Origin: Nitrospirota bacterium
Lineage (GTDB): Bacteria; Nitrospirota; UBA9217
Reading direction: 5' to 3'
Assembly: GCA_963751455.1 (NCBI GenBank)
Contig: CAVVUN010000009.1
Coordinates: 192,001-256,000 of the forward strand
Length of the DNA stretch: 64,000 bases
Made by a program: the position numbers and the translations under genes. Positions 11,312 to 63,383 of this stretch are shown here, piece after piece. Each line of letters opens with the position of its first letter. Within the stretch, counting starts at the first letter, position 1. The notes under the pieces are model-generated. The model was not told where the DNA came from. It worked only from the letters and a program-made list of their open reading frames with translations, and ran no database searches.

Positions 11312-12214
11312 ATGAGGAATCTGCTGAACGTAATAGTTCTGTTGTTGTTCATCATTGCATTGACCAGCACAGCAGGCGCAGCGACTGATGCGTCTACCTG
11401 TCTGGGGTGTCATGGATCGATGGAAGGATCAGTCAAGGTCGACCAGGAAAAATATTCAAAGTCTGTCCATGGCGCAATGAATGACTGCACCATGTGCCAT
11501 ATGGTCTTGAAAGGATCCCAGCATCAGGGTCTTATATCGGGTAAGCCTGACAAGACAACGCTGGAGCTTTCCGCCGCCATCTCGCACAAAAGCAAAATAG
11601 ACCCTGTAGCGCAAGCCGCATGCGTAACCTGCCATCCGGATGCATACCAGACGTATACAGCAAGCGTCCACGGGCAGAATGTGATGAAAAAGAAATCTAC
11701 GGACGGGCCTGTTTGTTCCAGTTGTCATGGATCTCCGCATTACATCTACCCGAAAGCCGGCAAGGAATCGGCCGTAAATCATTTCAATGTCGTGCAGGCA
11801 TGCGGAACATGCCATGAAGAAAAAATGATGTCTGAGAAATACGGCTTCAGCAGTCATGTTATGGAGCGGTATAAAGAGAGTTTCCACGGAAGGAAACTGA
11901 AGGTAGGTCACAGCGGGGCTCCTTCCTGTGCAAGCTGCCACGGTTCACATGATATCGTGACCGCTAAGAACCAGACATCACCGGTCTCTCCTGCGAACAA
12001 GGTCAAGACGTGTTCCAAATGTCATCCAGGAGCCAATGAAAAATTTGTTGCTGCGATCACCCATAAACCGCTCCATCCGGTTGCGCACTATGCCGAGATC
12101 ACTCTTATTCTTCTCACCGTGAGTGTCTTTCTGTTCATATGTATCCACGTACTGCTCGACATTTTTGCCGACATTCGCGACCGCGTATTCAGGAAGGGGG
12201 GGCACAATGAATAA
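11312..12214 (+). CDS. Membrane-anchored heptaheme cytochrome c
   Basis: Signal peptide, seven CxxCH motifs (CLGCH, CTMCH, CVTCH, CSSCH, CGTCH, CASCH, CSKCH) and a C-terminal TM helix containing His. Confidence 0.9.
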   Translation: MRNLLNVIVLLLFIIALTSTAGAATDASTCLGCHGSMEGSVKVDQEKYSKSVHGAMNDCTMCHMVLKGSQHQGLISGKPDKTTLELSAAISHKSKIDPVAQAACVTCHPDAYQTYTASVHGQNVMKKKSTDGPVCSSCHGSPHYIYPKAGKESAVNHFNVVQACGTCHEEKMMSEKYGFSSHVMERYKESFHGRKLKVGHSGAPSCASCHGSHDIVTAKNQTSPVSPANKVKTCSKCHPGANEKFVAAITHKPLHPVAHYAEITLILLTVSVFLFICIHVLLDIFADIRDRVFRKGGHNE

Positions 12215-12917
12215 GAATATTCCTGCCGAGATAGAGAGGTTTGACCTCTCCGCACGGATCCAGCATGTTATCATGTTCACGACGTTCTTGCTCCTGTCTT
12301 TTACCGGCTGGGGGCTCAAATACGCATATCAGGACCCGGCAAGCGCCTGGATCAGCTTCTGGGGCGGTGCAAAAATGGCGGGGATCATTCACCGTGTAGC
12401 CGGCATCACGATGCTCCTCGATTTCATTTATCACCAATTCTATCTGATCAACAGGGCGCGAAAAGGGCAGTTCAGGTTCTCGCTTGTTCCTACCCCAAAG
12501 GATGTTGTGGACGCAATCCACAACTTCATGTACTTCTTCGGATTCAGGAAGGGAAAGCCCTACTTCGGAAAATTCAACTATATGCAGAAATTCGATTATT
12601 GGGCGGTTTATTGGGGCATGTTCATCATCGGGGCGTCCGGGTTCTTTCTTGCGTTCCCGGTGATGGTGTCGTCGCTGTTCCCGTCATGGACAATCAACTG
12701 GGCATGGGATGTGCTTTTTATCATGCACAGTGATGAAGCGCTCCTGGCGATCGTGTTCATCCTCATATTCCATTTCTATAACGAGCATTTGCGCTCTGAG
12801 GTGTTCCCGATGAACTGGATGTGGCTGACGGGGAAGATGTCCATAGAGCAGTTAAAGCATCATCATCCGGCGGAGTACGATTATCTGTACGGAGATAAAT
12901 CGGAAAAGAAGAAATAG
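12207..12917 (+). CDS. Cytochrome b/b6-domain membrane protein (FdnI/HyaC-like)
   Basis: RIQH, IIHRVAG, KFNYMQKFDYWAVYWG, IMHSDEALLA, IFHFYNEH; overlaps the upstream cytochrome stop. Confidence 0.85.
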   Translation: MNKNIPAEIERFDLSARIQHVIMFTTFLLLSFTGWGLKYAYQDPASAWISFWGGAKMAGIIHRVAGITMLLDFIYHQFYLINRARKGQFRFSLVPTPKDVVDAIHNFMYFFGFRKGKPYFGKFNYMQKFDYWAVYWGMFIIGASGFFLAFPVMVSSLFPSWTINWAWDVLFIMHSDEALLAIVFILIFHFYNEHLRSEVFPMNWMWLTGKMSIEQLKHHHPAEYDYLYGDKSEKKK

Positions 12918-13012: not shown

Positions 13013-13675
13013 TCAACCGACCTTTTCAAGGACGCCCTGTTTCATTCTAAGGCGTTTGCCGGCACGGAGTGCAATCTCCGAACTATGGGTAACCATAATC
13101 ATCGTCACTTTTCTTTCCTGGTTGACACGTTCAAAAAAAGACATGATCTCGGCCTCAGTTTCCTCATCCAGATCTCCGGTCGGCTCATCCGCAAGTATGA
13201 TTTCGGGATCGTGGATAAAGGCCCTCGCGATCGCCACCCGCTGCTGCTCTCCACCTGAAAGCTCAGAAGGATACCGATCGATCTTGTCGCCCAGGCCGAC
13301 CTCCTGGAGCAGCTTTACTGCGTCTGCCGCGGTTTTATTGCCGCCGAACACTGTTGGAAGAAGGACATTCTCAGCGGCGGTGAGTGTAGGAATAAGACTG
13401 GCGAACTGGTACACAAACCCGAATTTCTCGTTTCTCAGGCGGGAAAGGCGATTATCATCATATTCCCGGATATTCTTGCCGTCGATCGACACAGTGCCGG
13501 TATCGGGCACTGCAATGCCGCCGATGAGACTCAGGAAAGTGCTTTTCCCGCTCCCTGAATGCCCTACAATGGAAACGAACTCGCCGCGCTGAATGGACAG
13601 ATCTACGGGATGCACGGCCTTTATTGTATTTCCTGAAACTTTATATGTTTTCGATAATCCCTTCAGTTCGATCAT
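13013..13675 (-). CDS. ABC transporter ATP-binding protein (LolD/MacB-like)
   Basis: [37 protein letters not shown]. Confidence 0.92.
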   Translation of the reverse strand: MIELKGLSKTYKVSGNTIKAVHPVDLSIQRGEFVSIVGHSGSGKSTFLSLIGGIAVPDTGTVSIDGKNIREYDDNRLSRLRNEKFGFVYQFASLIPTLTAAENVLLPTVFGGNKTAADAVKLLQEVGLGDKIDRYPSELSGGEQQRVAIARAFIHDPEIILADEPTGDLDEETEAEIMSFFERVNQERKVTMIMVTHSSEIALRAGKRLRMKQGVLEKVG

Positions 13676-13733
13676 GCGTTTCCTTTCTCCACTAACCTTT
13701 TTGGATATATCCCTTTTGAACAGAGTCTATGAA

Positions 13734-13908
13734 CCTAAAAAAAGCACTTGGGACGCAGAAAAATCGGATGAACGCAGATAAAGTCGGATAAAAAAAAGTT
13801 CTTGTATCGTAAAAGCAGTCACCCTGCGGGTGAATTTTTTTCTCTAAAAATTCTTTGTTTGATCTGCGGTTATCCTGCGTTCATCTGCGTCCAACTGCCG
13901 TTTTCAGG
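13734..13908. mobile_element. 175-bp MITE with CCT...AGG ends and 5-bp TSD ATGAA
   Basis: ATGAA|CCTAAAAAAAGCACTTGGGACGCAGA...TCTGCGTCCAACTGCCGTTTTCAGG|ATGAA; homologous copy at 52645-52818. Confidence 0.8.
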
Positions 13909-14308
13909 ATGAACGATTCCGTGCATACCTTCTAAATATGCCGATCACGGCCGCGACGCCTGATATTACACCGGCGGCCGCGATAAAGCGGATGCCTGGC
14001 ACCATTCCGTAATTACACGGCATCCTGGCGCTCCGGCAGTAACCCGATACATCGGGGAGCACGAAGGAGACGATGAAAAGTGAGATGGCTGCCAATGAGC
14101 ACACTATCAGCCCGATTCGGAATTTCAGGAAAAGCGCAAGAACGCCGGTCAGTATGAGCAGCGTGCCGACAGCCATTTCCCACCGTGCCGTATCCGAGCA
14201 GTGCATTGCAGCATATCCCTGATACTCACACGCAGGAAGAATGAAACGGGGAACAACAATAAGCAGGATTCCGCCGATCAAAGCGGTAAAGCCGGTCCAT
14301 TTATTCAT
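13904..14308 (-). CDS. DUF4418-like Cys-rich membrane protein
   Basis: Four TM segments with PACEYQGYAAMHC and GYCRSARMPC motifs; family assigned from memory of the motif pattern. Confidence 0.65.
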   Translation of the reverse strand: MNKWTGFTALIGGILLIVVPRFILPACEYQGYAAMHCSDTARWEMAVGTLLILTGVLALFLKFRIGLIVCSLAAISLFIVSFVLPDVSGYCRSARMPCNYGMVPGIRFIAAAGVISGVAAVIGIFRRYARNRSS

Positions 14309-14715
14309 CGAACTGCCTTTAGTGCTGCTGAAAAATTCATGACGCTGCCGAACTGCGCGGCTGTTTTTCTGTCCTTGAACGATGCGATTCCCCAGCCCAT
14401 CGGCGAAATGAGTTTCTTGTCGGCATGCACATAAAAGGCGGTTTGGCCGTCAATCCATTCACCCGTATTGTAGTCACGCACTTCAATGCGCTCAGTCGGC
14501 GGTTTATTGCCGTTGATAAAGGTCAGCAGGTCGCCGATGTCGCAGAAATAGAGCGTTTTGTTGGCATTCACGATCCGTGATGTAAATTTCGACGCGATAT
14601 CGGAAAGCATGCCGCACTGCCTGCATTTTATCGTTTCGGCAGCAGCGGGAAAGGCAAAAAACAAACAGAGTAAAGCGGCGAGCGCGGGTCTCGATAACTG
14701 TCTCTTCATGATCAT
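14305..14715 (-). CDS. nosL: NosL-family copper chaperone
   Basis: Signal peptide; CRQCGM, LYFCDIGDL, EWIDG..AFYV, SPMGWG. Confidence 0.8.
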   Translation of the reverse strand: MIMKRQLSRPALAALLCLFFAFPAAAETIKCRQCGMLSDIASKFTSRIVNANKTLYFCDIGDLLTFINGNKPPTERIEVRDYNTGEWIDGQTAFYVHADKKLISPMGWGIASFKDRKTAAQFGSVMNFSAALKAVR

Positions 14716-15308
14716 TTCCTCTTTGCATCTATCTCTTTTTTCAAAGATTCTGCAACGCCTTCATCGAATTTCTTCAACTCCTGATACTGCTTCAATGCGT
14801 CGCCCTTCAGTCCTTTTTTCAGAAAGGAGACACCCAGGTTGAAACGCGCGGTTGCGTATCTCGGACGCAGGGAGACAGCATTTTTGAGTGACGCGATTTG
14901 ATTGTCGATTTCGCCTAATTTGCCATAAGCGAACGCGGCATTGTTGTACAGTACGGGGTCCTTTGGAAGATATTTCCCGGCGTTTGAGAAGCTGCCCACA
15001 GCCTCCCGGTATAATCCGAGTCTGTTATAGGCATTTCCCAGTTTCAGTGAGGCGTACCCGTGCTCGGGCTTTATGGCCACGACCTTCTTCAGGGCATCTA
15101 CTTCTTCCCTGAACATATCAGCTCTTTCATAGAGGTCCGCGAGGTGAAACCATGCGGCTGCATCTCTCGGATTGTCCCTGGTCTTTTCGCGCAGTATCTC
15201 CACTTCGCTCTTTTCCCTTGGAACTGGCGCCTGCGTGCCGGTTTTATCATTTGAACATCCGGAATACAACCCCATAATCAGCAGCGAGATGATCATATAA
15301 ATATTCAT
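14712..15308 (-). CDS. TPR-repeat lipoprotein
   Basis: Lipobox LYSGC; repeated TPR helices (AWFHLADLY, LKLGNAY, LYNNAAFAY, ARFNLGVSF). Confidence 0.8.
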   Translation of the reverse strand: MNIYMIISLLIMGLYSGCSNDKTGTQAPVPREKSEVEILREKTRDNPRDAAAWFHLADLYERADMFREEVDALKKVVAIKPEHGYASLKLGNAYNRLGLYREAVGSFSNAGKYLPKDPVLYNNAAFAYGKLGEIDNQIASLKNAVSLRPRYATARFNLGVSFLKKGLKGDALKQYQELKKFDEGVAESLKKEIDAKRK

Positions 15309-16525
15309 TCGGAGCTCCTGATCGCTTCATAGGGTTCGGTTCTGATAACAGCGAGTGACGGCAAAAGCGCTGAGAAAAGGCCTGTCAAAACAGCAAAAAG
15401 AAGGGCTGCAGCCGTCAGGGCGGCCAGCTCAAGTGCTGACGGAAAGAGATACGGCAGCTTCAGGTAGTGCAGCATCAGGTTCTTGAAGCTGAAAAGCAGT
15501 ACGAACCCCAGCATGATTCCGGCGGCTCCGCCGGCAGCAGAGAGAATGGAGGCTTCGGTCAGGATGATAATTCCTATATGACGGCGGTTCGCACCCATAG
15601 CCCGCAGGAGTCCTATTTCCCTGCGGCGCTCATTGACGATCATATAAAAGGCAAAGGCCATGATGAGGAGGACGATTATCCAGAGAATGACGCTGATGAT
15701 TAAAATGGCATTGATAAGCCCGGACAGCTGTTTTCTCACGGTGCTGATTACTGTGTCCGAAGTCAGGGCTTTGATGTCAGGAATGTCATGCTCAAGCCTT
15801 ATTGCTACGCGGTCGGGTGTTATGTCTTCACCAACCTGGACCAGGACCGTGGAGATGCTTTCCCGGCTGATATCTATTTTTTCTATGGCCTTCGCTGCAG
15901 ATTCTTCCGCCATTTTGTAGGCGGCCTCGAGGCTCATGAAAGCCGATCGATCGAAAAAATCCATACCCGTGGGGTCCATGGTGCCGGCAACCTGAAACAC
16001 GGTCCCGAAGAACGGTATGCTGTCGCCGGCGATAACGGGAATTTCCCTTCCGGTTACAATTTCATTATCCGCCAGATTTCTATTCAAATGCTTCTCGAGC
16101 CAGGGTTTGACCGTAAAGTCCGTCACCGGGTCGAACGCCACGAGGAATACGTCCACGTTGAAGCAGCAGGTAAAGCTTGTCGGTTTTATGAAGAGCTGAG
16201 GTGTAGCGTTTCTGACGCCCTGCGTTTTTTTAACCTGGTCGAGGACCGTCCTGTTCATAAGAAACTGAGTGGGCTCCCCTGAAAGAAGGGCAGCCTTCGC
16301 TTTTGTCTCGGCTTCCCGGGGCACGACAAGTATGTCTGCCCCCAGGCGATACGTTCCCAGTTTGAGCGCGTTGTTAATGCTCTTGAGAAATAGAGTCGCG
16401 CTGAAGAGAGTGCAGGCTACTACGGCAACAATGGCAAACAGCAGCCAGGTCCGCGTGAGTTTTCTTTTAAGGTTTTTGAGGGCGACATACGGGATATTCA
16501 TTCCTGGAGCATTTTTCCTTCTCAA
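15305..16525 (-). CDS. MacB/FtsX-type ABC permease with Cys-Cys motif
   Basis: RLGADILVVP, SFTCCFNV in the extracytoplasmic domain, NERRREIGLLRAMGA, FtsX-type C-terminal TMs. Confidence 0.88.
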   Translation of the reverse strand: MRRKNAPGMNIPYVALKNLKRKLTRTWLLFAIVAVVACTLFSATLFLKSINNALKLGTYRLGADILVVPREAETKAKAALLSGEPTQFLMNRTVLDQVKKTQGVRNATPQLFIKPTSFTCCFNVDVFLVAFDPVTDFTVKPWLEKHLNRNLADNEIVTGREIPVIAGDSIPFFGTVFQVAGTMDPTGMDFFDRSAFMSLEAAYKMAEESAAKAIEKIDISRESISTVLVQVGEDITPDRVAIRLEHDIPDIKALTSDTVISTVRKQLSGLINAILIISVILWIIVLLIMAFAFYMIVNERRREIGLLRAMGANRRHIGIIILTEASILSAAGGAAGIMLGFVLLFSFKNLMLHYLKLPYLFPSALELAALTAAALLFAVLTGLFSALLPSLAVIRTEPYEAIRSSE

Positions 16526-16654
16526 TTAAGATGGATTATTATACCAGAAGAAGAAGGGCAAGTAAACCGGGTTACTGAACAAACAGATGCCGGGCTGAAA
16601 GAGCGAGTGCATGCTGGTGTGAAAACGGTCGGATTTGAATGGATTGCAGTGAAG

Positions 16655-16693
16655 AAAAAACCGGAGGGCGACAGATCATCGCCCCCCGGAAAA
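16655..16693 (-). terminator. Terminator/attenuator hairpin after the beta-propeller gene
   Basis: AAAAAACCGGAGGGCGA-CAGATCA-TCGCCCCCCGG; T tract on the minus strand. Confidence 0.65.
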
Positions 16694-16701
16694 CAGGTTG
16701 A

Positions 16702-17793
16702 TTATTTATGCCAGTCGATGGTAATGCCGCAGAGAAGAGGCGAACCCTTGTCGATTTTGACTTCCACGCCCGCAGCCTTGTGGCATGCCGCGCATGCAGA
16801 AACTTTTCCGACCAGGTTGTTGCTGCTCATTTCCATAATATTCAGCGTGCTGTCATCACCATACGTGCGCGAAGACAGGAAGACATATTTGCCGTCCTTC
16901 GTGAACGCAAAATCGTGAGGCCTGATGTTGTCCGGGAGGACGATTCGCTTCACGATGGCGTCCTTCGCCGTATCGATTACGATTACCTGGCTCTTGTGGG
17001 TGCCCGGTTTCAAGCCCGGGTCGAACTCGTTGGGCGCGCTTACCCACAGATATTTGCCGTCCGGAGTCATGCGGGCCTGATGAATAAAGGTCATTTCCGG
17101 GCTCGTGATCTGCTTGATTTCCTTTTTCTTCGTCCAGTCATATACATACACGACGCCCGTGGGCATGTCGGTTATATACGCCTTCTTGTTGTTCTTGGTC
17201 CACTGAATTCCGCAGACTGCCTTTCCGACGGGCATCTTATCGACCGTCTTCAGGGTTTTCGCGTCCCACACATAGACATGGCCGTCCGCCATGTCTTCAA
17301 AATATATGTTGCCGTCCGGGCCGGCAATAGCGCCGCAGAATTTTTCACCGACTTTGAACGGGCCTTCCTTTTTGCCGGTTGCGAGATCGATCTTGTAGAC
17401 ATTCCCCGCCAGCGTGCCGGCTACGAGATATTTTTTGCCCTGTTCGGTGTAGAGCTCCTGCCCGTGTGAGCCGCCCGCCTTCTTGGTTTCTTCAAAACTC
17501 ATGCCGGCGATTTTGCCCTCCATCTCGGAACCCGCCTCAGCAAGAACTATGCGTTCTTTCTCAACGTCGACAGGGGCCTTCATCGTGTTCATATCAATAA
17601 TAGCCAGATGGCCGCCGTGACCCGCAATGTAGGCCGTGGCGTTGAAGGTCGGTATTTTTGCTGCGGGCGTTTCCTTTACAGTAACTACTTTCACGTCCGC
17701 CGCTTCAACTGATGAATTCGAAGACATTGCAAGGAAAAGAGCAAAGAGACTAAGAACAACCAATCCGAGAACCGCGCTTTTTTTCAAACTCAT
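16702..17793 (-). CDS. Exported YVTN/YncE-like beta-propeller with C-terminal CxxCH (putative heme c/metal protein)
   Basis: Sec signal from ATG 17793 after a GGGGG RBS; blade repeats (GPDG, TPDGKYLWVS, TKDGKYVFLS); GHGGH; CAACH; LLCG. Confidence 0.75.
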   Translation of the reverse strand: MSLKKSAVLGLVVLSLFALFLAMSSNSSVEAADVKVVTVKETPAAKIPTFNATAYIAGHGGHLAIIDMNTMKAPVDVEKERIVLAEAGSEMEGKIAGMSFEETKKAGGSHGQELYTEQGKKYLVAGTLAGNVYKIDLATGKKEGPFKVGEKFCGAIAGPDGNIYFEDMADGHVYVWDAKTLKTVDKMPVGKAVCGIQWTKNNKKAYITDMPTGVVYVYDWTKKKEIKQITSPEMTFIHQARMTPDGKYLWVSAPNEFDPGLKPGTHKSQVIVIDTAKDAIVKRIVLPDNIRPHDFAFTKDGKYVFLSSRTYGDDSTLNIMEMSSNNLVGKVSACAACHKAAGVEVKIDKGSPLLCGITIDWHK

Positions 17794-18169
17794 ATTATTA
17801 CCCCCTTTTGTTGAATTATGAAATAAATGAACTGCTTTCCCTTTAGAACCGTGATATTTCGTGGATATTTCGTGCTGCGGATCTTCTTTGCCGTTTTTCA
17901 CCTCCTTATTTTGCGGATTTTGGGCTTTTACAATGAACAGTATCTATGTATTAGAATAAACATAAATAAGAGATTGTCAACCTATAAATGCTGGTTTAAA
18001 AGTTAACAAAAATAGCAACTCCATTGAATGAACTCAGGCGGTGAGTAGGGTAATAATAAGATTCGCAGAACGGATGGACCGGCATAATTGAACGGGAACG
18101 AAAATAAAATAATTTCCGGGAATGGAGATTCTCCCCGGCTGTTCAATGCCGGGGATACAGTTTTCACGA

Positions 18170-44431: not shown

Positions 44432-46991
44432 ATGGACGATCTTAAAGCTATTCTTGAAAGAATCAGGAAGCCGCTTGCGTTTGCGAGCAGGGACGGGTTT
44501 GCCCATTTGGGAAGCTTGGCGGCCCTTGAACCTTTCATGGTGAAACAGGTCCAGGATCTGAAAGCTATCACAAAGGGGAATAGGCTTGTTCCTGAACTTG
44601 AAAAGCTGTTCGCAGGGTTCGACAGTCTGAGTCTGAAGGAGAAGAAGGAGCGGATCAAGGAAGCTTCAAAGGTGATGGATTTGCTTGGTCAGGAGCAAGA
44701 ACATGCACCTTCAGTCAGAAATTGCCCCTCACCCCAACCCTCTCCCTCAAAGGGAGAGGAGGAAGAGGGAGAAGCAGAGTGGAAAGGTATCAGTTTCTTC
44801 GAAAAAGACTAAAACCACCCCTCACCCTATGCCTCTCCCCAAGGGGAGAGGGAATGTAGAATAGGGGAGAGGGAGCAGTGCCCATCTCAATCTAGACACT
44901 CCTGTCCAGTACGTAAAGGGCATCGGGCCGAAGCGGGCGGAATTGCTGAAGAAGGTCGGGATCTCGACCGTGGATGATGCTCTTACCTATCTTCCCTGGA
45001 GATACGAGGACCGGGGAAACTTGAAGAAGATCGGCCGGGTCAGCATAGGTACCTATGAAACCGTAATGGGAGACGTGGTATCCGCGGAAGTGGTCGAGAC
45101 GAAGCGCAGGTGGGTCAAGGTTTTCGAACTTGTGATCAGGGACCAGAGCGGGATGCTCGTCGGTTCCTGGTTCAACCAGCCGTTCATGAAAAAGGCGTTT
45201 AAAACCGGCCAGAAGGTGATCCTTTCCGGAATTGTTAAATCCAACCCATACCGCAGCGGCCTTCCGCAGATCGATAACCCGGACTACGAGATCATGGACG
45301 AGAACGAACAGGACAACCTGATACATACCGGGAGGATCGTTCCGATCTACAGGACAACATCCGGACTTTCCGTTCGATACCTCCGCAGCATGATGAAGAC
45401 AATTCTCGATTCCTCTGCTGAAGCAATGACGGAGTGTCTGCCTGATGACATTATAAAAAAATACTCTCTCATGCCCCGAGCAGAAGCTTTGTCTGAAGTG
45501 CATTTTCCGGACAAAGAAAAAGACATTTCGATTCTGAACAGGGGTACAAGCGCTGCCAACAGGCGACTGAGCTTTGAGGAATTATTCTCGCTCGAACTCG
45601 GCCTCGCACTTAAAAAACGTGGCGTTGCTGTAGAAAAGAAGGGTATTTCGTTCAAAAATGTCGGGGACATGGAGGCGAAGCTTCGCAAAGACCTGCCCTT
45701 TTCGCTCACAAAAGCACAGGAACGGGTGATAGCGGAAATCAAGCATGATATGACTGCAGAGCGGCCGATGAACCGGCTCGTTCAGGGGGACGTGGGGAGC
45801 GGAAAGACCATGGTGGCGTTGGTTGCCGCGCTCATGGCTGTGGAGAACGGATACCAGGCCTGCATCATGGCGCCAACCGAGATCCTTGCGGAACAGCACT
45901 TTAAGAACATCACAGCTTTGGCCTTATCACTCGGCATCCAGGTGCGGTCGCTGACCGGCCGCATGAAGAAAAAAGAAAAGGATACACTGCATTGCCGAGA
46001 TAGAGTCGGGAATTGCCCAGATCGTGGTCGGCACACATGCGCTTATCGAACAGCAGGTAAAATTTCATCGTCTTGGCCTTGCTGTCATAGACGAGCAGCA
46101 CCGATTCGGGGTGATGCAGCGCTCAACGCTTGACCTCAAAGGGATATGAGCCGGACGTACTCATCATGACCGCGACCCCGATTCCGCGCACTCTTGCGCT
46201 TACGGTGTACGGGGACCTCGACGTATCCGTTATCGACGAGATGCCGCCTGGCCGGAGCCCCATCATAACAAGGCTTTATTTTGAAAACAGGCGCGCGGAA
46301 GCGTACACTTTCATAGATAATGAAATCAAAAAGGGGCGGCAGGCATATGTGGTTTACCCGCTTGTCGAGGAGACCGAAAAGTCCGACCTCAAGGCAGCTA
46401 CCGAGATGGCAGCGCATCTCCAGAAGGACATATTTCCCGAAATGGAAGGTCGGGCTCCTGCACGGCAGGATGAAATCAATTGAGAAGGAATCGGCGATGG
46501 CTGCGTTCAAGGCCGGAGAGACCTATATCCTGGTATCGACGACCGTGATCGAGGTCGGCGTGGACGTGCAGAACGCTACTGTCATGGTTATCGAGCATCC
46601 GGAGCGCTTCGGACTGGCACAGCTTCACCAGCTTCGCGGCAGGGTCGGAAGGGGCGGGCATCAGTCCTATTGCATTCTGATGGGTCCGCGCATGTTTGCC
46701 GAAGAAGCCAAAGAGCGGCTGAACGCTTTTGTCCGTACGATTGACGGCTTCAAAATCGCCGAGGAAGACTTGCGGCTCCGCGGGCCCGGTGAGTTCTTCG
46801 GAACGCGCCAGTCAGGCTTGCCTGATCTGCGCGCTGCAAACATTATCCGGGACGCAGACCTGCTCGAAAAGGCCAGGTTCGAGGCGTTCGAATTGGTGCA
46901 GCGCGAGCCGGAGCTTTCAGGCTATCCGGAGGTCCGGGAACTGCTTCGCAGAAAGTGGCAGGGGAGGTTGGGGCTCATAAGCGTCGGTTGA
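44432..46991 (+). CDS. recG: ATP-dependent DNA helicase RecG with N-terminal extension (split by several frameshifts)
   Basis: YLPWRYEDR, RLVQGDVGSGKT, IDEQHRFG, MTATPIPRT, ERFGLAQLHQLRGRVGRG, LRGPGE; breaks near 44810-44890, 45990 and 46440. Confidence 0.9.
44725..44852. repeat. Two REP-like CCCTCACCC..CCTCTCCC..GGGAGAGG palindromes in the recG linker
   Basis: 44725-44759 and 44818-44852; a related copy lies at 55912-55943. Confidence 0.75.
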
Positions 46992-47482: not shown

Positions 47483-48306
47483 TAACGATCAGCGTCCTCC
47501 TCTTCGGCCTTGTTGTCGGAAGCTTTTTGAATGTCTGTATAGTGCGCCTGCCCCGCGGACGTTCCATCGTTCACCCTCCGTCACATTGCCCGAGATGCAG
47601 GGAGAGGATAAAAGTCTACGACAATATACCCATCATAAGCTATTTGCTGCTGCGCGGCAGATGCAGGAGCTGCGGAGAGCCGATCTCGCTGCGCTATCCG
47701 CTCGTTGAAGTTGTGAACGCCTCGTTCTATGTCTGGATCGTCAGCGAGTTCGGGCTGGGCGGAGAAGCGTTCCTGATGATGGTGTTCTGTTCCTCGCTCA
47801 TCGTGATAACCTTTATCGATTTCGATTACCAGATAATCCCGGACATAATCACCCTCCCGGGAATTCTCGTCGGGGTTTCGGCAGCTCCTTTTTTCATGTC
47901 AGCGCTCACCGAATCTCTCCCTTTCCGTCTTGGAGAGCTCATGCCCCATGCCGGGCTCTATCTGACCAGTTTTCTCAACTCGGTGATCGGCATGTTGATC
48001 GGCGCCCTGCCCCTTCTCATTATCGGATGGGCGTGGGAAAAGCTTCGGCATATCGAAGCAATGGGCGGCGGGGACATTAAATTGATGGGCATGGTCGGCT
48101 CTTTCCTCGGCTGGAAAGGCGCGCTCCTCACTATCATGCTGGGAGCGCTGACGGGCTCGGCTGTCGGCCTCAGTCTTATTCTGCTGAAACGCCAAACCAT
48201 GGAAAAAGTAATTCCTTTCGGTCCCTTTCTCGCTCTGGGAGCTGTCGCAACCGCTTTTTACGGACCCGATATCATTTCCTGGTACCTGGGTCTGCTCCGC
48301 ATATGA
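47479..48306 (+). CDS. pilD: Prepilin peptidase/N-methyltransferase
   Basis: GSFLNVCIVRLP, SHCPRC, LRGRCRSC, FIDFDYQIIPD, MGGGDIKL, IPFGPFL. Confidence 0.95.
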   Translation: MITISVLLFGLVVGSFLNVCIVRLPRGRSIVHPPSHCPRCRERIKVYDNIPIISYLLLRGRCRSCGEPISLRYPLVEVVNASFYVWIVSEFGLGGEAFLMMVFCSSLIVITFIDFDYQIIPDIITLPGILVGVSAAPFFMSALTESLPFRLGELMPHAGLYLTSFLNSVIGMLIGALPLLIIGWAWEKLRHIEAMGGGDIKLMGMVGSFLGWKGALLTIMLGALTGSAVGLSLILLKRQTMEKVIPFGPFLALGAVATAFYGPDIISWYLGLLRI

Positions 48307-49567
48307 CCCTCAACCCGACCTCGATACTACTGCTCACTCTGCTTATCGTGCTGTTTGGCACGGCGCTGCTTTGGGGTTTCGTGCGTCGGTATCGCCGGGA
48401 ATTGGGGATCGAGAAGGAAGAACGGAAAAAGACGCAAGACTCCGCTTTTATCATCAATGCCTTTCATGACGTCACCAAACAGCTCAAGGAAAAGGAAAAG
48501 GAGCTTGAGCGGCTCAAATCGCTCGCTGAACAGCGTGCCGAAAACGTAACAAGCTACAACGAGAACATACTGCAGTGCGTTACGAGCGGCGTTATGACAT
48601 TCGACATAAACTGTGTTCTGACTACGATAAACCGCGCAGCCGAAGAGATGCTCGGCTTCGACCATGGACAGAAAATCGGTCAGAGCTGTCGCGACCTTTT
48701 CGGCAACGGCGATATAACCGGCGCAGTGCATGAGACCATCCGGAACAAGATGCCGTCCGCGCGTCTTGAGGCAATGCTGGACCGGTCTGCAGGCAAAATG
48801 TGGCTGGGGTTCAATACGGCGCTTCTGACCGACAGCCGGGGTGAGGCACTTGGCGTCATTCTTTCATTCTCCGACTTGACCGAAGTCAAGAGGCTCCAGG
48901 AGCAGGTGGAGTTGCGGGAGCGGCTGACCGCCCTCGGGGAAATGTCGGCAGGCATCGCGCATGAGTTGAGGAATCCCATGGCGGTAATCAGCGGATACCT
49001 GAGCATTCTGGCGAAAAAATCAGAGAACCAGAAGACGCGGACGATCATACGTGACATCGGCAGCGAGATCAGCGGCATGAACCGCATCATAGACGATCTC
49101 CTTACTTTTGCGAGGCCTGCTTCCTTGAACCGGGTGCGTATTGACATCAGGGAACTGCTCGACGGGTGTATGGCCGGCGCGCTTCAGGCTACGGCGCAGG
49201 TTCGCGCATCACAGCGACAATCAATACCGAAAAACACGAGCTATTCGTCGACGAAGTGCTGATGCGCCAGGCATTTACGAACCTGTTCCAGAACGCAATC
49301 GAGGCCATTCCCGATACCGGCGCCATAACCGTTGACGTGAGAAGCGGCAGGCAGATGAAGATAGCCATCCGCGATACAGGCTCCGGCATTCCAGCCGATA
49401 AAATCAAGATGATATTCGTTCCTTTTTTTACCACGAAGGACAAGGGCGTGGGGCTTGGCCTGGCCCTGGTCCATAAGATCATCCTGTCGCACGGAGGAAG
49501 AATCGAAGCGGAGAGCATGGAGGGAAGGGGAACGACATTTACCGTAACGATGCCGAAAGGTAATTAG
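48303..49567 (+). CDS. PAS-domain sensor histidine kinase (frameshift near 49185)
   Basis: TM, PAS, H-box AGIAHELRNP; N/G boxes NLFQNAIEA, DTGSGI, PFFTTK..GVGLGL in the second frame. Confidence 0.88.
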
Positions 49568-52883: not shown

Positions 52884-54939
<2,056 letters not shown>

Positions 54940-59456: not shown

Positions 59457-59933
59457 ATGGCCGTCTCCATTAAAAAGATATTTTATGTATTCCTGTTCTT
59501 GCTGGTCGGCGCTCTGGCCGGATGCTCCCAGGGGACCCCGGTCATTTCAATTGATTCCGCGGAAGCCAGGCTTTCACCGGTGTTCTCAGGAGCGGCTTCC
59601 ATCTTTATGAAGATAACTAATTCAGGAAACGGCGCTGATTTGCTTGTTGGTTGCGTTCTCGATATCCCGAATACGACCGCGGAATTTCACGATATGAAAG
59701 ACGGCAAGATGGTAAGAGTGGAAAGCATAGCGATCCCGTCAAACGCTGTGACTGCACTCAGACCTGCCAGCCTCCATATCATGGTATTCAAAATGCCGAA
59801 AGAGATAAAAGAAGGGCACCAATTTACTGTTCGGTTGAATTTCAAAAAATCGGGACCAAAAACAGTGTTGATCAGGATTGCCGGTGCATCGAATCATCTA
59901 AACAAAACGCACGGTAATCAGAAAATTATCTGA
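59457..59933 (+). CDS. PCu(A)C copper chaperone lipoprotein
   Basis: Lipobox LAGC; H..M...HxM ligand pattern AEFHDMKDGKM...SLHIM. Confidence 0.85.
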   Translation: MAVSIKKIFYVFLFLLVGALAGCSQGTPVISIDSAEARLSPVFSGAASIFMKITNSGNGADLLVGCVLDIPNTTAEFHDMKDGKMVRVESIAIPSNAVTALRPASLHIMVFKMPKEIKEGHQFTVRLNFKKSGPKTVLIRIAGASNHLNKTHGNQKII

Positions 59934-60150: not shown

Positions 60151-61377
60151 ATGAAAAAAAGACTTTTCGCAGCAGTCGTCGTATTAGCTCTTTCGCTTCT
60201 GACGTATCTCGCTTTCACCACCATTGACAGCAAAACCCAGACTGCTGTGGCAGCCGCACCGGCCGAAGCACCTGCAGCAGCACCTGCACCTGCAGCAGCA
60301 CCTGCACCTGCAGCAGCGCCCGCAGCGGCATATTCCGCTACGGTCTACGTTGCAGGCCACGGAGGACATTTTGCAAAAGCTGAAGTTACCATAGACCCCA
60401 GCAATGCGGACAACCCGATAGCGATCGCGGCACTTGACAAGGTTGACATCGGCACGACAAAATCCCATAAGACGCATGATGCACGAATCGATTCCCAGAA
60501 CAGCAACGTATTACTCTGGTCGACGTACCAACTCGACGAGAACGGAAAGCAGCATGTCGGAAAATCCGACCTCACGACCGGCAAAGTGATCACCGATATC
60601 GCCATGGACACTGACAAGCGTTCTACGGGCGGCGAAAAGAAGATGCCGATCTATTGCGCCTCAGGACAGTCCAAGGCCTTTTATATGCCGGTTTTCATGG
60701 GCAGTGAAGCCTATGTCGATATAATCGATAAGAAAACCATGCAGCTCAAACACAGGGTATTCATCAGCGATCTCGGCTACAAGGCAGGAAGCTATCAATT
60801 CCTTCATGGCGTCAACAGCAACAAAATGGATAAATTCCTTCTCACCATGACCATGAAAGGTGAAGACGGGAAGATGAACGGAAAAATCGATTTCGTGCTC
60901 GTTGACCTCAAACAGATGGAAAAGGGCAAATTCAAGGAAATCAAGAAAAAGTCCCATACCGGCACACCCATGAAGACGATCACGTTCAGAGAATACTTCA
61001 GCAAAGATGACAAATACATATTCCAGTCCGCCGGAGACAGGCTCTGGGTACTGGATGCAAAGACCCTCGAGCTGGTTGACGAAAAAATGAGCACCGCCGG
61101 AGAAAACCACGACTTGATGCCGACCCCGGACGGAAAATATGCGCTCATGACCGTCAGGAACCCGACAACAGAGGGCTGTGACACCGAAGGCAAGCCGATT
61201 GTCGACAAGGAAGGGAAACCGGTCCTGATTACGGACGGCCTTATCCAGCTGTACGATTTCGGCGCCAAGAAGATCGTAGGCAAGGGTAATTCAGTCTGTT
61301 TCGGCTGCCACAAAGGCATGGGCCTCGGCGACAAGACAGCCATCCTCTGCGGCCTGGATGCGAATTACAAAAAATAA
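60151..61377 (+). CDS. Exported beta-propeller with C-terminal CxxCH; paralogue of 16702-17793
   Basis: Signal peptide, Ala/Pro linker, VYVAGHGGH, THDA, YCAS, LHG, NHD, CFGCH, ILCG. Confidence 0.75.
   Translation: MKKRLFAAVVVLALSLLTYLAFTTIDSKTQTAVAAAPAEAPAAAPAPAAAPAPAAAPAAAYSATVYVAGHGGHFAKAEVTIDPSNADNPIAIAALDKVDIGTTKSHKTHDARIDSQNSNVLLWSTYQLDENGKQHVGKSDLTTGKVITDIAMDTDKRSTGGEKKMPIYCASGQSKAFYMPVFMGSEAYVDIIDKKTMQLKHRVFISDLGYKAGSYQFLHGVNSNKMDKFLLTMTMKGEDGKMNGKIDFVLVDLKQMEKGKFKEIKKKSHTGTPMKTITFREYFSKDDKYIFQSAGDRLWVLDAKTLELVDEKMSTAGENHDLMPTPDGKYALMTVRNPTTEGCDTEGKPIVDKEGKPVLITDGLIQLYDFGAKKIVGKGNSVCFGCHKGMGLGDKTAILCGLDANYKK
60256..60330 (+). repeat. 18-bp tandem repeats encoding the APAAAP linker
   Basis: GCACCTGCAGCAGCACCT repeated about three times. 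Confidence 0.8.
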
Positions 61378-61502: not shown

Positions 61503-62699
61503 ATGACTGAATCGTTCTCACTTATTTCACTTGCGGGAAAAAATCTAACAAGAAAACCGCTGCGCACCGTTATTCTCATCTTCTCAATAGCTATGCTCGT
61601 AACCGCTATCATATTCATCCTCTCTTTTGTAAGGCGGGTGGATTCCGTGATAGCGTCGACCTCCGACCGGCTTGGCGCCGATATTATCATCGTGCCGACA
61701 GGTTCACGCGGGGCCGCAGAAGACATCCTTCTTGAAAACAGAGTGAAGTCTTTTTACATGCCCCGAAATATACTGGAAAAGCTCAAACAAATAGAAGGGG
61801 TCGACCGGCTGACGGAGCAGACCTACCTCGCCACCATTACGGGCGAATGCTGCGATGTGCCCGAGACTATGGTGGTTGCCTTTAATCAGGAAACTGATTT
61901 CATCATCAAACCCTGGCTGAACAAAAAACTGGGCCGGATACTCAAAAAAGGAGAGGCGATTGTCGGCCAGGAATCCGCCCTGAACATCAGTGTCGGTCTC
62001 ACCGATGTGGACGGTATTCTTTTCGGGAATATATTCAAGATGGTGGGTGTACTCGATAGAACAGGAACAGGCCTTGACACCGCAATATTTATCGATGAGA
62101 CGAACATCGGCGATATTCTGACGAAAGGAAAGAGCGCGCTCAAACCCGATCAGGTTTCCATCATTTTCGTCAAAGTTCTCACCGGAACGGACCCGCAAAC
62201 GATTGCCAATCAAATAGAGGATTCCGTGATCGAAGTCGATGCCGTCGCGAGAAAGGACATAGGAAAAAGCATTCTCGCAACACTCAGGGATCTGAACACA
62301 ATCTTTTTCGTAAGCGTCGCGCTGGCTTCTCTTTTGTCGGTATTTCTTGTCTGGGCGGTCTTTTCGGCGATAGCGAACGAGAGATCACGGGAAATAGGGA
62401 TCATGCGCGCTCTGGGAGCCCGTGAGTCGCACATCAGCCGCCTGTTTCTGACAGAAGTGCTGTTCATCGGCTGCGCGGGAAGCATAATCGGCGTCCTGGC
62501 CGGGACGAGTATTTCTTTTCTGGTAATAAAGAATTTCATGCTCCTGAAGGGCGTAACAACGGATATAACGCTGATTGATCGGCTGGTCATCGCTTTATTC
62601 TCGTTTGCAGCAGGAACGGCAATATGCACTGCAGGCGCCTTATCTCCGATACAGAGGTTAAAGAAACTGGAGCCGCTGCTGGCGATAAAAGAGGATTAA
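61503..62699 (+). CDS. MacB/FtsX-type ABC permease with Cys-Cys motif; paralogue of 15305-16525
   Basis: RLGADIIIVP, TGECCDVP..VVAF.QETDF.IKPWL, NERSREIGIMRALGA. Confidence 0.88.
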   Translation: MTESFSLISLAGKNLTRKPLRTVILIFSIAMLVTAIIFILSFVRRVDSVIASTSDRLGADIIIVPTGSRGAAEDILLENRVKSFYMPRNILEKLKQIEGVDRLTEQTYLATITGECCDVPETMVVAFNQETDFIIKPWLNKKLGRILKKGEAIVGQESALNISVGLTDVDGILFGNIFKMVGVLDRTGTGLDTAIFIDETNIGDILTKGKSALKPDQVSIIFVKVLTGTDPQTIANQIEDSVIEVDAVARKDIGKSILATLRDLNTIFFVSVALASLLSVFLVWAVFSAIANERSREIGIMRALGARESHISRLFLTEVLFIGCAGSIIGVLAGTSISFLVIKNFMLLKGVTTDITLIDRLVIALFSFAAGTAICTAGALSPIQRLKKLEPLLAIKED

Positions 62700-63383
62700 A
62701 TGCAGCATATCGAAGTGCAGGATGTATCGAAATATTATACGATCGGCAAACAGAGAATTACAGCCGTTGATCGAGCCGCGCTCACTATCCAGGAGGGAGA
62801 TTTTGTGTCCCTCATCGGTCACTCCGGGTCTGGGAAAACGACCTTGTTGTCGATCATCGGAGGCATTATCAGGCCCACCGGCGGACAGGTACTCTACCGA
62901 GGGAGCGACATATGCACTGCCAATGACGACGCGCTATCGCAATACCGGAATACAAAGGTCGGCTTCATGTTCCAGTTCGCGAGCTTGTTGCCGTCGCTCC
63001 GTGTCAGCGAGAACCTGCTGCTTCCGACTCTTTTCAATGACGGCCGGGGTGCAGCCGCAGGATCACACGGCCATAAAGTCCGGGAACTGCTCTCTCTGGT
63101 CGGGCTCGAAGACAAAGTGCGAGCTTTTCCTTCCCAGTTGTCCGGCGGGCAGCAGCGCCGTGTCGCGATTGCGAGGGCCTTCATGAATAATCCGGAGCTC
63201 ATACTTGCCGATGAACCAACCGGCGATCTTGATGAGGAAACCGAGCAGGACATGATGGATTTTTTCAAGTCGATGAATAAAAGTCATCGCATAACTTTCA
63301 TCATGGTCACTCATAATACCGACCTCGCAAGGCAAGCAAACCGATGCATCAGGATGCATCAGGGCAGGCTTAACGAAGCGTGA
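62700..63383 (+). CDS. ABC ATP-binding protein; paralogue of 13013-13675
   Basis: GHSGSGKTT, QFASLLP, LSGGQQRRVAIARAF, LADEPTGDLDEETE. Confidence 0.92.
   Translation: MQHIEVQDVSKYYTIGKQRITAVDRAALTIQEGDFVSLIGHSGSGKTTLLSIIGGIIRPTGGQVLYRGSDICTANDDALSQYRNTKVGFMFQFASLLPSLRVSENLLLPTLFNDGRGAAAGSHGHKVRELLSLVGLEDKVRAFPSQLSGGQQRRVAIARAFMNNPELILADEPTGDLDEETEQDMMDFFKSMNKSHRITFIMVTHNTDLARQANRCIRMHQGRLNEA

What the first reader, a model, noticed from the sequence alone, without database searches (positions are those of the whole stretch)
13013..17793. Candidate undescribed periplasmic heme-c/copper beta-propeller enzyme with its own maturation operon
Seen: the 363-aa exported propeller has His or Cys at the start of each apparent inner strand (SHG, FCG, VCG, IHQ, PHD, closing LCG), plus GHGGH, two DM loop methionines and one CxxCH just before the last strand. 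Co-oriented downstream are a Cys-Cys ABC permease, a TPR lipoprotein, NosL, a Cys-rich DUF4418-like protein and an ATPase. Known: NosZ binds CuZ through histidines on one propeller face and uses NosL plus an ABC transporter for maturation. This protein has no CuA domain, and no nosD/nosR is in the window. Inference: a mixed His/Cys multinuclear metal site, possibly copper, wired to a heme c, with unknown substrate.
Basis: partly seen in the sequence, partly recalled or inferred. Interest (0 to 1): 0.88.

Follow-up and report, generated by a model that had tools for sequence, protein, structure and literature searches.

The report
Unnamed haem-copper propeller enzyme and loader
A conserved gene set in Nitrospirota-type bacteria encodes an unnamed exported protein, predicted to fold as a six-bladed propeller, with a haem-attachment motif and a ring of cysteines and histidines, and almost always a dedicated ABC motor whose relatives also sit beside the known copper enzyme thiocyanate dehydrogenase, so it is likely a new periplasmic copper-haem enzyme, possibly acting on a sulfur compound.

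Summary
In detail: all six genes and the motifs are there. The AlphaFold model (pLDDT 92) has six blades, not NosZ's seven, with one His or Cys at the start of each inner strand (H110, C153, C194, H238, H293, C355). C153, H293, R309 and C355 persist down to 24% identity; H62 comes and goes with CxxCH and is the likely second haem ligand. It is not NosZ, clade III NosZ, TcDH or NirS. The genome holds two more paralogues (one beside its only PCuAC, one circularly permuted), each followed by a MacB-type permease with a periplasmic Cys-Cys. Propeller and permease co-occur in 87 of 301 phylum genomes, with 9 discordant. The same permease clade follows thiocyanate dehydrogenase, a tricopper propeller, at five loci, which supports copper loading. 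Against: NosL is in only 19 of 68 close loci, the DUF4418/Cys-Cys permease module also occurs without a propeller among cysteine-synthesis genes, and no distances, metal or substrate were measured. Best reading (0.45): a periplasmic Cu/haem-c oxidoreductase for a small sulfur anion, served by an ATP-driven type VII ABC machine.

The parts
16702..17793 (-). Exported six-bladed beta-propeller, 363 aa, Sec-type signal (no twin Arg), His/Cys ring H110 C153 C194 H238 H293 C355, R309, M168, M210, H62, CxxCH 334-338
16661..16689 (-). Intrinsic-terminator-like hairpin (13 pairs, T tail) right after the propeller stop; would give more propeller than accessory mRNA (inference)
17953..17980 (-). Sigma-70-like site TTGACA-16-TATTCT upstream of the propeller; consensus match only, count not above shuffles
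15305..16525 (-). MacB/FtsX-type (type VII) ABC permease with invariant periplasmic Cys120-Cys121
14712..15308 (-). TPR protein with lipobox-like signal; clustered in 53 of 68 close loci
14305..14715 (-). NosL-family protein (CxxCGM, FCD, PMG); optional, 19 of 68 close loci
13904..14308 (-). DUF4418 Cys-rich membrane protein; optional, 17 of 68 close loci
13013..13675 (-). ABC ATPase, LolD/FtsE/MacB-like
59457..59933 (+). PCuAC copper chaperone, the only one in the genome, directly upstream of the type B paralogue
60151..61377 (+). Type B paralogue of the propeller (six blades, GGH, THD, YCA, LHG, NHD, R, CxxCH, LCG); no Pfam hit
61503..62699 (+). Second Cys-Cys MacB-type permease (ECCD)
62700..63383 (+). 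ABC ATPase of the type B operon

Best explanation
The 363-aa protein belongs to an unnamed exported family, is predicted to be a six-bladed propeller, and is likely a periplasmic copper/haem-c oxidoreductase that would act on a small sulfur anion, with the neighbouring Cys-Cys MacB-type ABC machine likely loading its metal. Steps: (1) shown: signal peptide without twin Arg, CxxCH, conserved ring, fixed linkage to the permease and ATPase. (2) Predicted: six blades; ring, M168, M210, R309, H62 and CxxCH all on the same face (from strand order, not distances). (3) Inferred: haem c is attached at C334/C337 with H338 and H62 as axial ligands and relays electrons; C153, C355, H293 plus H110/C194/H238/M168 bind one to three Cu ions at the tunnel mouth, and R309 holds the anion. 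(4) Inferred: the protein is exported unfolded, thiols are kept reduced (TlpA-like genes at some loci), NosL or PCuAC brings Cu(I), and the ATP-driven periplasmic domain of the permease hands it on through its Cys-Cys pair, as NosD does for NosZ; the TPR lipoprotein would hold the apo-protein. (5) Weakest step: the substrate is a sulfur compound (thiocyanate-like, thiosulfate, polysulfide). My separate odds: metal site 0.85, copper 0.6, sulfur substrate 0.45.
For: Six-blade model pLDDT 91.9 with motifs at inner-strand starts; best structural matches are six-bladed YWTD/NHL propellers, Z 25.2, rmsd 2.8, 253 aligned. C153, H293, R309, C355 invariant in 32 chosen sequences of 24-59% identity; type B keeps the equivalents in 136-137 of 137 (profile match A to B 99.8%). 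H62 and CxxCH: 31 both, 4 neither, 0 discordant among 35 scorable. Permease CC in 53 of 53 full-length cognate permeases. Propeller/permease profile 87 both, 3 and 6 single, 205 neither. In this genome the 3 permeases with periplasmic CC each follow a propeller of the family, of 17 HMM hits. Cys-Cys permeases of the same clade directly follow TcDH homologues at 5 of 20 extra loci fetched; a homologous permease follows a TcDH-like gene on a Methylocella plasmid. TcDH has three Cu in its propeller tunnel (PMC9456337, passages) and is followed by ABC subunits suggested to serve copper acquisition (PMC5328954, passages). Clade III nosZ clusters carry a MacB-type transporter proposed to replace NosDFY (PMC13685413, passages). 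PCuAC at 8, NosL at 5, TlpA-like at 4, YeeE at 9 of 41 distant loci; PCuAC with TlpA assembles Cys-bound CuA (PMC7558416, passages).
Against: No distance, metal or activity was measured. NosL in only 19 of 68 and PCuAC in 0 of 68 close loci; YeeE in 1 of 68. The genome has a CuA-type oxidase that could be the client of its PCuAC and a second NosL elsewhere. DUF4418 + Cys-Cys permease + ATPase occurs with no propeller beside cysteine synthase and an Rrf2 regulator in Treponema and Cys-Cys permeases lack a propeller in 2 of 7 genomes of a second phylum, so the module need not handle copper. The Methylocella TcDH-linked permease has no CC. TcDH is Tat-exported and one paper argues its copper is loaded in the cytoplasm (PMC6504805, section 18). 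Blades 3 and 4 differ between types (Cys/His versus His/Phe), so a six-ligand cluster is not universal. FtrD-like genes at 9 of 41 loci point to metal uptake instead. Nitrospirota clade III nosZ loci showed no permease homologue on 6 short contigs.
Confidence: 0.45

Rival explanations
1. Metal-free or metal-assisted Cys sulfur chemistry: C153/C355 with H293 and R309 form a persulfide/thiosulfonate site oxidised or reduced through the haem (works like TsdA/SoxA or a rhodanese, recalled), and the Cys-Cys permease moves sulfane sulfur or reducing equivalents rather than copper.
For: The invariant core is Cys, Cys, His, Arg. YeeE at 9 of 41 loci, a rhodanese at 2, cysteine desulfurase at 3. Same permease module among cysteine-synthesis genes in Treponema. 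TcDH releases elemental sulfur (PMC9456337), which its ABC system could also handle.
Against: Conserved Met and extra His residues and linked NosL/PCuAC are not needed for this. YeeE in only 1 of 68 close loci.
Confidence: 0.2
2. Metal trafficking rather than catalysis on a substrate: the ring binds Cu or Fe, the haem changes its redox state, and the operon is an uptake, storage or detoxification module like the fetMP-fetABCDEF cluster (P19 partner, ABC permeases, DUF2318, thioredoxins).
For: FtrD/DUF2318-like at 9 and TlpA-like at 4 of 41 loci; the fet cluster has DUF2318, an ABC transporter and thioredoxins (PMC10783030, passages); a porin gene precedes the permuted type C paralogue.
Against: No FtrD-like gene in 68 close loci; several FtrD genes lie with a separate non-CC permease; invariant R309 suits an anion, not a metal; no iron permease cluster recurred in the neighbourhood clusters.
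Confidence: 0.2
3. A nitrogen-oxide enzyme: a CuZ-like cluster with haem c replacing CuA, reducing N2O, NO or nitrite.
For: Top NCBIfam hit is clade III NosZ; NosL adjacent; clade III clusters have a MacB-type transporter (PMC13685413).
Against: 54 bits against a cut-off of 700; match covers about 200 columns of generic repeat and aligns the ring Cys to His/Asp; six blades; CuZ uses seven His (PMC13685413); true L-NosZ in this phylum has CuA and occurred in 5 genomes, none of them among the 90 with this family.
Confidence: 0.07
4. A monohaem electron-transfer or scaffold protein whose Cys form structural disulfides; the ABC machine releases or positions it as LolCDE-like systems do.
For: Periplasmic Cys often pair; C153 and C194 are on neighbouring blades; a degenerate subgroup keeps C153, C194, H238 and CxxCH but has lost H293, R309, C355 (5 of 36).
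Against: Type B has no blade-3 Cys yet keeps C153 and C355 equivalents on non-adjacent blades; four relatives keep the ring but lack the haem motif, so the ring is the core function.
Confidence: 0.08

Closest known systems
Thiocyanate dehydrogenase (TcDH; PDB 5F75, 8Q9X) and its downstream ABC genes
   Same: Periplasmic propeller with metal ligands at the tunnel; electrons go to a cytochrome c; followed by ABC subunits; in Nitrospirota the gene after TcDH is a Cys-Cys permease of the same clade as the window's (29-31% identity).
   Different: TcDH is seven-bladed, Tat-exported, about 500 aa, has no CxxCH; family profile matches it only over about 100 positions at E 2e-11 whereas true homologues score 1e-160.
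NosZ with NosDFY-NosL (clades I/II)
   Same: Propeller with ligands on one face; NosL chaperone; ATP-driven ABC machine proposed as Cu hand-over.
   Different: Seven blades, seven His, CuA domain, NosD/NosY; here six blades, Cys/His ring, haem c, MacB-type permease; structural Z 19.4, rmsd 4.3, below generic six-bladed propellers.
Clade III lactonase-type NosZ (NF052460)
   Same: Best NCBIfam hit; cluster reported to hold a MacB-type transporter and cytochromes.
   Different: 54 of 700 bits; has CuA and a His/Asp ring.
MccA haem c-copper sulfite reductase
   Same: Haem c plus copper acting on a sulfur oxyanion (title seen in a reference list; the two-Cys Cu(I) site and NosL-like MccL are recalled).
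   Different: MccA is an octahaem protein, not a propeller; no sequence or fold match was listed.
NirS/NirN/NirF cytochrome d1 propellers; YncE/YVTN surface propellers
   Same: Repeat-level sequence similarity (PF02239 32.9 bits; 1L0Q best PDB sequence hit).
   Different: Eight or seven blades (recalled), no Cys/His ring; matches are partial.

Membership tests
NosZ clade I/II | C-terminal CuA cupredoxin domain | tested here: not met
   Protein ends 8 residues after LCG; no CuA motif or Pfam hit
NosZ clade I/II | Seven-bladed propeller with seven CuZ His | tested here: not met
   Model has six blades; three of six ring positions are Cys
NosZ clade I/II | nosDFY in the genome | tested here: not met
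   No TIGR04247 or TIGR04246 match over cut-off; permease is FtsX/MacB
Clade III L-NosZ | NF052460 score over 700 bits and CuA domain | tested here: not met
   54.3 bits; real members in the phylum score about 750 and carry CuA
TcDH | Full-length similarity to solved TcDH | tested here: not met
   E 2e-11 over about 100 profile positions versus 1e-160 for true homologues
TcDH | Tat signal, seven blades | tested here: not met
   No twin-Arg motif; six blades
TcDH | Copper-dependent thiocyanate oxidation | not testable with these tools
   Needs an assay
Cytochrome d1 family (NirS/NirN/NirF) | Full-length eight-bladed d1 domain | tested here: not met
   PF02239 32.9 bits (cut-off 25.5) but only residues 194-331 against profile 228-354 of 368; six blades
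SELENBP1/MtoX | NF052453 or fold match | tested here: inconclusive
   No MtoX hit for the query, 26.6 of 650 bits for one relative; not listed in the fold searches, which does not exclude it
YncE | NF052280 over 400 bits, seven blades | tested here: not met
   20.3 bits
c-type cytochrome | Exported CxxCH, conserved, with maturation genes in the genome | tested here: met
   CxxCH in 119 of 119 near and 32 of 36 distant homologues; 50 ORFs with 4 or more CxxCH and three hits to an ORF I judged CcsA-like by eye
c-type cytochrome | Covalent haem | not testable with these tools
   Needs haem stain or mass spectrometry
Type VII (MacB/FtsX) ABC transporter | FtsX C-terminal domain, MacB-like periplasmic domain, LolD/MacB-like ATPase | tested here: met
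   PF02687 69 bits; PF12704 22.4 bits (under its cut-off of 27; 34.2 for the paralogue); PDB hits MacB, LolC/F
NosL | PF05573 over cut-off | tested here: met
   38.7 bits, cut-off 24
NosL | Cu(I) binding and delivery | not testable with these tools
   Needs an experiment

The most novel reading that the evidence does not exclude
A categorically new metalloenzyme class: a six-bladed propeller holding a Cys/His-ligated copper (or copper-sulfur) cluster wired to an in-loop bis-His haem c, catalysing a missing periplasmic step of sulfur cycling in Thermodesulfovibrionia-type bacteria, and matured by a type VII ABC 'copper insertase' with a Cys-Cys hand that is also the unrecognised maturation factor of thiocyanate dehydrogenase.
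Probability: 0.3. Interest if true: 0.92.

Novelty: new variant of a known kind. Interest (0 to 1): 0.74.

Why it matters
About 30% of sampled genomes of this phylum (90 of 301) carry the family, several in two or three paralogous forms, yet it has no family model, no solved relative and no paper found in my searches. If it is a Cu/haem enzyme it adds a new metal site to the few copper propellers (NosZ, TcDH, MtoX) and a candidate for unexplained periplasmic sulfur chemistry. The permease link gives a direct test of an open question: what the MacB-type ABC genes beside TcDH and clade III NosZ do. TcDH has an assay and structures, so the Cys-Cys permease can be tested there before the substrate of the new protein is known.

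Tried and rejected
NosZ, L-NosZ, TcDH, d1 and YncE membership rejected (see Membership tests). Complex prediction of propeller with permease domain: tool not available, nothing folded. Cluster-member names: query could not be made. Fused longer forms: none at E<=1e-25, but only 721-2055 aa were searched and the tool calls this weak; two fusions were seen otherwise (P0126, P0127). Metagenome contexts of the haem-less and archaeal-looking relatives: nothing found, so their gene neighbourhoods are unknown. RNA: no RNA holder listed. Plasmids: no family member. ESM Atlas: top two clusters unnamed Nitrospirota 'cytochrome D1' clusters, no function. Fold searches list no TcDH, MtoX or MccA chain in the top 50; absence is not exclusion. 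He et al. 2025 (clade III NosZ) is not held. Literature searches found no description of this family; finds in PMC13490349 (0 hits for propeller, NosL, copper), PMC12998232 and PMC12758564 showed none. Subscription papers and supplements were not seen. PMC7771511 and PMC4794192 gave nothing on the MccA site. The blade-1 column was misaligned for distant rows; I used for it.
Full report
Observation. Pfam gives FtsX (69 bits) with a weak MacB periplasmic match, TPR, NosL (38.7 bits, cut-off 24), DUF4418 (64.7, cut-off 27) and ABC ATPase. The propeller has a hydrophobic signal with an AxA-like site near residue 31 and no twin Arg (read by eye). A 13-pair hairpin with a T tail follows its stop codon; promoter-like sites were no more frequent than in shuffles.

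Fold. AlphaFold2 on 137 sequences gave pLDDT 91.9, pTM 0.86. The strand list reads as six four-stranded blades, the sixth closed by the last strand with residues 52-83. The inner strands start at H110, C153, C194, H238, H293 and C355. By standard propeller topology (my inference from the DSSP list) the b-c loops with M168, M210, R309 and G58-H62, and the d-a loop with CxxCH 334-338, lie on the same face. The best of 48,161 chains are six-bladed YWTD, NHL and Kelch propellers (1NPE Z 25.2, rmsd 2.8, 253 aligned); NosZ is at Z 19.4, rmsd 4.3 (same picture). No distances could be measured.

Conservation. 560 homologues among 4,975 candidates; the 119 listed are 74-89% identical, so their near-total conservation of the motifs says little. 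In 37 distant rows (17 library representatives, 20 locus proteins, two of them duplicates): C194 37/37, H238 37/37, C153 36/37, M210 32/37, M168 31/37; of 36 rows reaching the C-terminus R309 32, CxxCH 32, H293 31, C355 31. H59 is kept in 19 of 37; the 12 non-motif His/Met residues in 1-9 of 37. Five rows form a degenerate set without H293/C355. Four rows keep the ring but lack CxxCH, and exactly these lack H62 (31 both, 4 neither, 0 discordant of 35); they may be one or two clades, so this is a lead for H62 as distal haem ligand, not a statistic. In a 32-sequence alignment that left out the degenerate set, only C153, H293, D300, R309 and C355 are invariant; the blade-1 residue is His or Asp.

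Paralogues. A profile search of the genome found a second member in this window (60151-61377), preceded by the genome's only PCuAC and followed by a Cys-Cys permease and ATPase. This type B has 1,012 homologues, no Pfam hit, matches type A full length at 99.8% probability, and folds to the same six-bladed class. It keeps GGH, blade-1 His, blade-2 Cys, Met, blade-5 His-Asp, Arg, CxxCH and blade-6 Cys in 136-137 of 137 but has His for C194 and Phe for H238. A third copy (G000:C15, L079:8887-10071) is a circular permutation starting at blade 3, after a porin and before a Cys-Cys permease; similar permuted forms are in L171 and, as a tandem repeat, L176.

Gene context. In 68 GTDB loci, titled mostly Nitrospirota with some deltaproteobacteria and Myxococcales, the permease follows the propeller in 61 (two of the seven others end at a contig edge), NosL is in 19 and DUF4418 in 17, TPR in 53 and an ATPase in 54 by clustering; YeeE 1, PCuAC 0, FtrD-like 0. 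All 53 full-length cognate permeases have CC. In 41 more distant loci that I chose (20 other A-like, 20 type B, L079): permease cluster 34, YeeE 9, FtrD-like 9, PCuAC 8, NosL 5, DUF4418 5, TlpA-like 4, and a 90-aa protein I recall as DsrE-like but with no Pfam hit 7. Over 301 genomes of the window's phylum, 107 hit the propeller profile at E<=1e-20; I counted the 90 with hits at E<=1.3e-30 and dropped 17 with partial hits. 93 hit the permease profile. Both 87, propeller only 3, permease only 6, neither 205; kin are not independent. In the phylum of G301, 5 of 301 had a propeller hit (one partial) and 7 a permease; 5 of the 7 have a propeller next to it.

The TcDH link. I fetched 20 permease hits that were not next to a known propeller hit. 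At five (L180-L184, three families) the Cys-Cys permease directly follows a Tat-type protein of about 520 aa; L183 matches solved TcDH at E 2e-173 to 5e-162, four checked copies keep most His motifs that I recall as Cu ligands, one is split. A cyanase-like ORF precedes one (by eye). In a quick tree of 70 permeases (SH-aLRT only, careful search unfinished) all 56 CC permeases and one CC-less partner form one clade (98), and the five TcDH-linked ones, on a long branch, fall in a 39-row group (99) with the window's permease. On a Methylocella tundrae plasmid a TcDH-like gene (E 1e-157) is followed by a homologous permease without CC. TcDH is a seven-bladed propeller with three Cu that oxidises thiocyanate to cyanate and sulfur and passes electrons to a cytochrome c (PMC9456337, passages); in Thioalkalivibrio it is followed by four ABC subunits whose role 'might be in copper acquisition' (PMC5328954, passages). 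A 2026 review says clade III nosZ clusters encode a MacB-type transporter possibly analogous to NosDFY, and that NosDFY passes Cu(I) from NosL to NosZ (PMC13685413, passages).

Against a pure copper reading. The other extra permeases lie beside permuted propellers (L171, L176, probably L179), YeeE (L170, L173), a PCuAC-like ORF (L185), or nothing obvious (output partly cut). In Treponema saccharophilum DUF4418, a Cys-Cys permease and an ATPase sit among cysteine synthase, Rrf2 and transsulfuration genes with no propeller. One TcDH paper argues for cytoplasmic Cu loading (PMC6504805, section 18). The genome has a CuA-bearing oxidase subunit and a second NosL. The fet iron cluster has DUF2318, ABC permeases and thioredoxins too (PMC10783030, passages).

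Host. The genome has a split dsrA with a dsrB-like neighbour, several YeeE genes not beside the three propellers, 50 ORFs with four or more CxxCH, no TcDH, and no NosZ, L-NosZ or NosD over cut-off. L-NosZ-like genes were in 5 of the 301 genomes, none among the 90 with this family; they carry CuA, and their six short contigs showed no homologue of the permease. PMC13477213 (whole text read) describes clade III clusters without canonical nos accessory genes.

Mechanism. Most likely the protein is exported unfolded, receives haem c at C334/C337 with H338 and H62 as ligands, and takes Cu(I) at the Cys/His/Met ring from NosL or PCuAC through the ATP-driven Cys-Cys domain of the permease; an anion held by R309 is oxidised or reduced at the metal and electrons pass through the haem, the built-in equivalent of TcDH's separate cytochrome. 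Sequence, linkage and conservation are shown; fold is predicted; metal, ligation, loader role and substrate are inferred. PCuAC and TlpA in Cys-bound CuA assembly are from PMC7558416 (passages); MccA's Cu site, TsdA/SoxA chemistry and mechanotransmission by type VII transporters are recalled.

Novelty. No family model, solved relative or paper was found (searches; subscription papers and supplements unseen). Three earlier AI reports of this scan describe types A and B in other genomes with a similar reading; they are not independent evidence, and their summaries do not mention the TcDH link, the permuted type, the haem-less relatives or the Treponema counter-example. Verdict: real, undescribed, a new variant of the metal-propeller-plus-ABC-loader kind; interest 0.74.

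Noticed in passing
L180-L184 (G274:C36, G128:C2, G185:C20, G089:C33, G236:C72): Thiocyanate dehydrogenase homologues in genomes of this phylum, each followed by a Cys-Cys permease, ATPase and further permeases; cyanase-like ORF upstream in L181.
   Followed up: partly
L190:5040-9768 (Methylocella tundrae plasmid NZ_LR536451.1): Unannotated 614-aa TcDH-like protein (E 1e-157 to solved TcDH) with permease, ATPase and a hypothetical protein on a methanotroph plasmid; one His motif looks altered (DLQT where others have D[TM]HT).
   Followed up: partly
L079:6977-12594 (G000:C15:148976-154593): Porin, small lipoprotein, circularly permuted propeller paralogue and two permeases (one CC, one not), then a CGGC protein; no ATPase gene seen next to them.
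   Followed up: partly
L176:6322-8577: 751-aa lipoprotein holding two tandem permuted propeller units with two CxxCH.
   Followed up: no
P0172, P0197, P0235, P0154: Relatives with the full His/Cys ring and Arg but no CxxCH and no H62; gene context unknown.
   Followed up: partly
P0178, P0184, P0239, P0143; L110:6264-7223: Degenerate relatives keeping CxxCH but lacking H293 and C355; in L110 one lies near an intact copy and beside a TlpA-like gene and a 566-aa Cys-Cys permease.
   Followed up: no
P0126, P0127, P0122, P0124, P0135, P0140: P0126 has a cytochrome c domain inserted in the propeller; P0127 carries the propeller inside a 2,470-aa surface-like protein; four relatives end in a Gly-Cys motif at or near the C-terminus (possible redox tail; stop codon not checked).
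   Followed up: no
window 11312-12917 (+): Multihaem cytochrome c plus cytochrome b561-like pair converging on the operon; syntenic in about 11 of 68 close loci only.
   Followed up: partly
L191:4771-6841 (Treponema saccharophilum pTS2): DUF4418 + Cys-Cys permease + ATPase inside a cysteine-synthesis gene cluster: a hint at the function of DUF4418.
   Followed up: partly
window 44943-46991, 48303-49567, 52923-54704; G000:C2:327037-328180: recG-like, sensor-kinase-like, ligase-like and dsrA genes are split across frames, probably assembly indel errors.
   Followed up: no
window 51297-52457 (-): Transposase-like ORF (integrase-core type, by eye).
   Followed up: no
L164-L169: Clade III nosZ loci of this phylum carry two NHL/Vgb-like propeller genes, cytochrome b6-like and c-type genes and a TlpA-like gene.
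   Followed up: no
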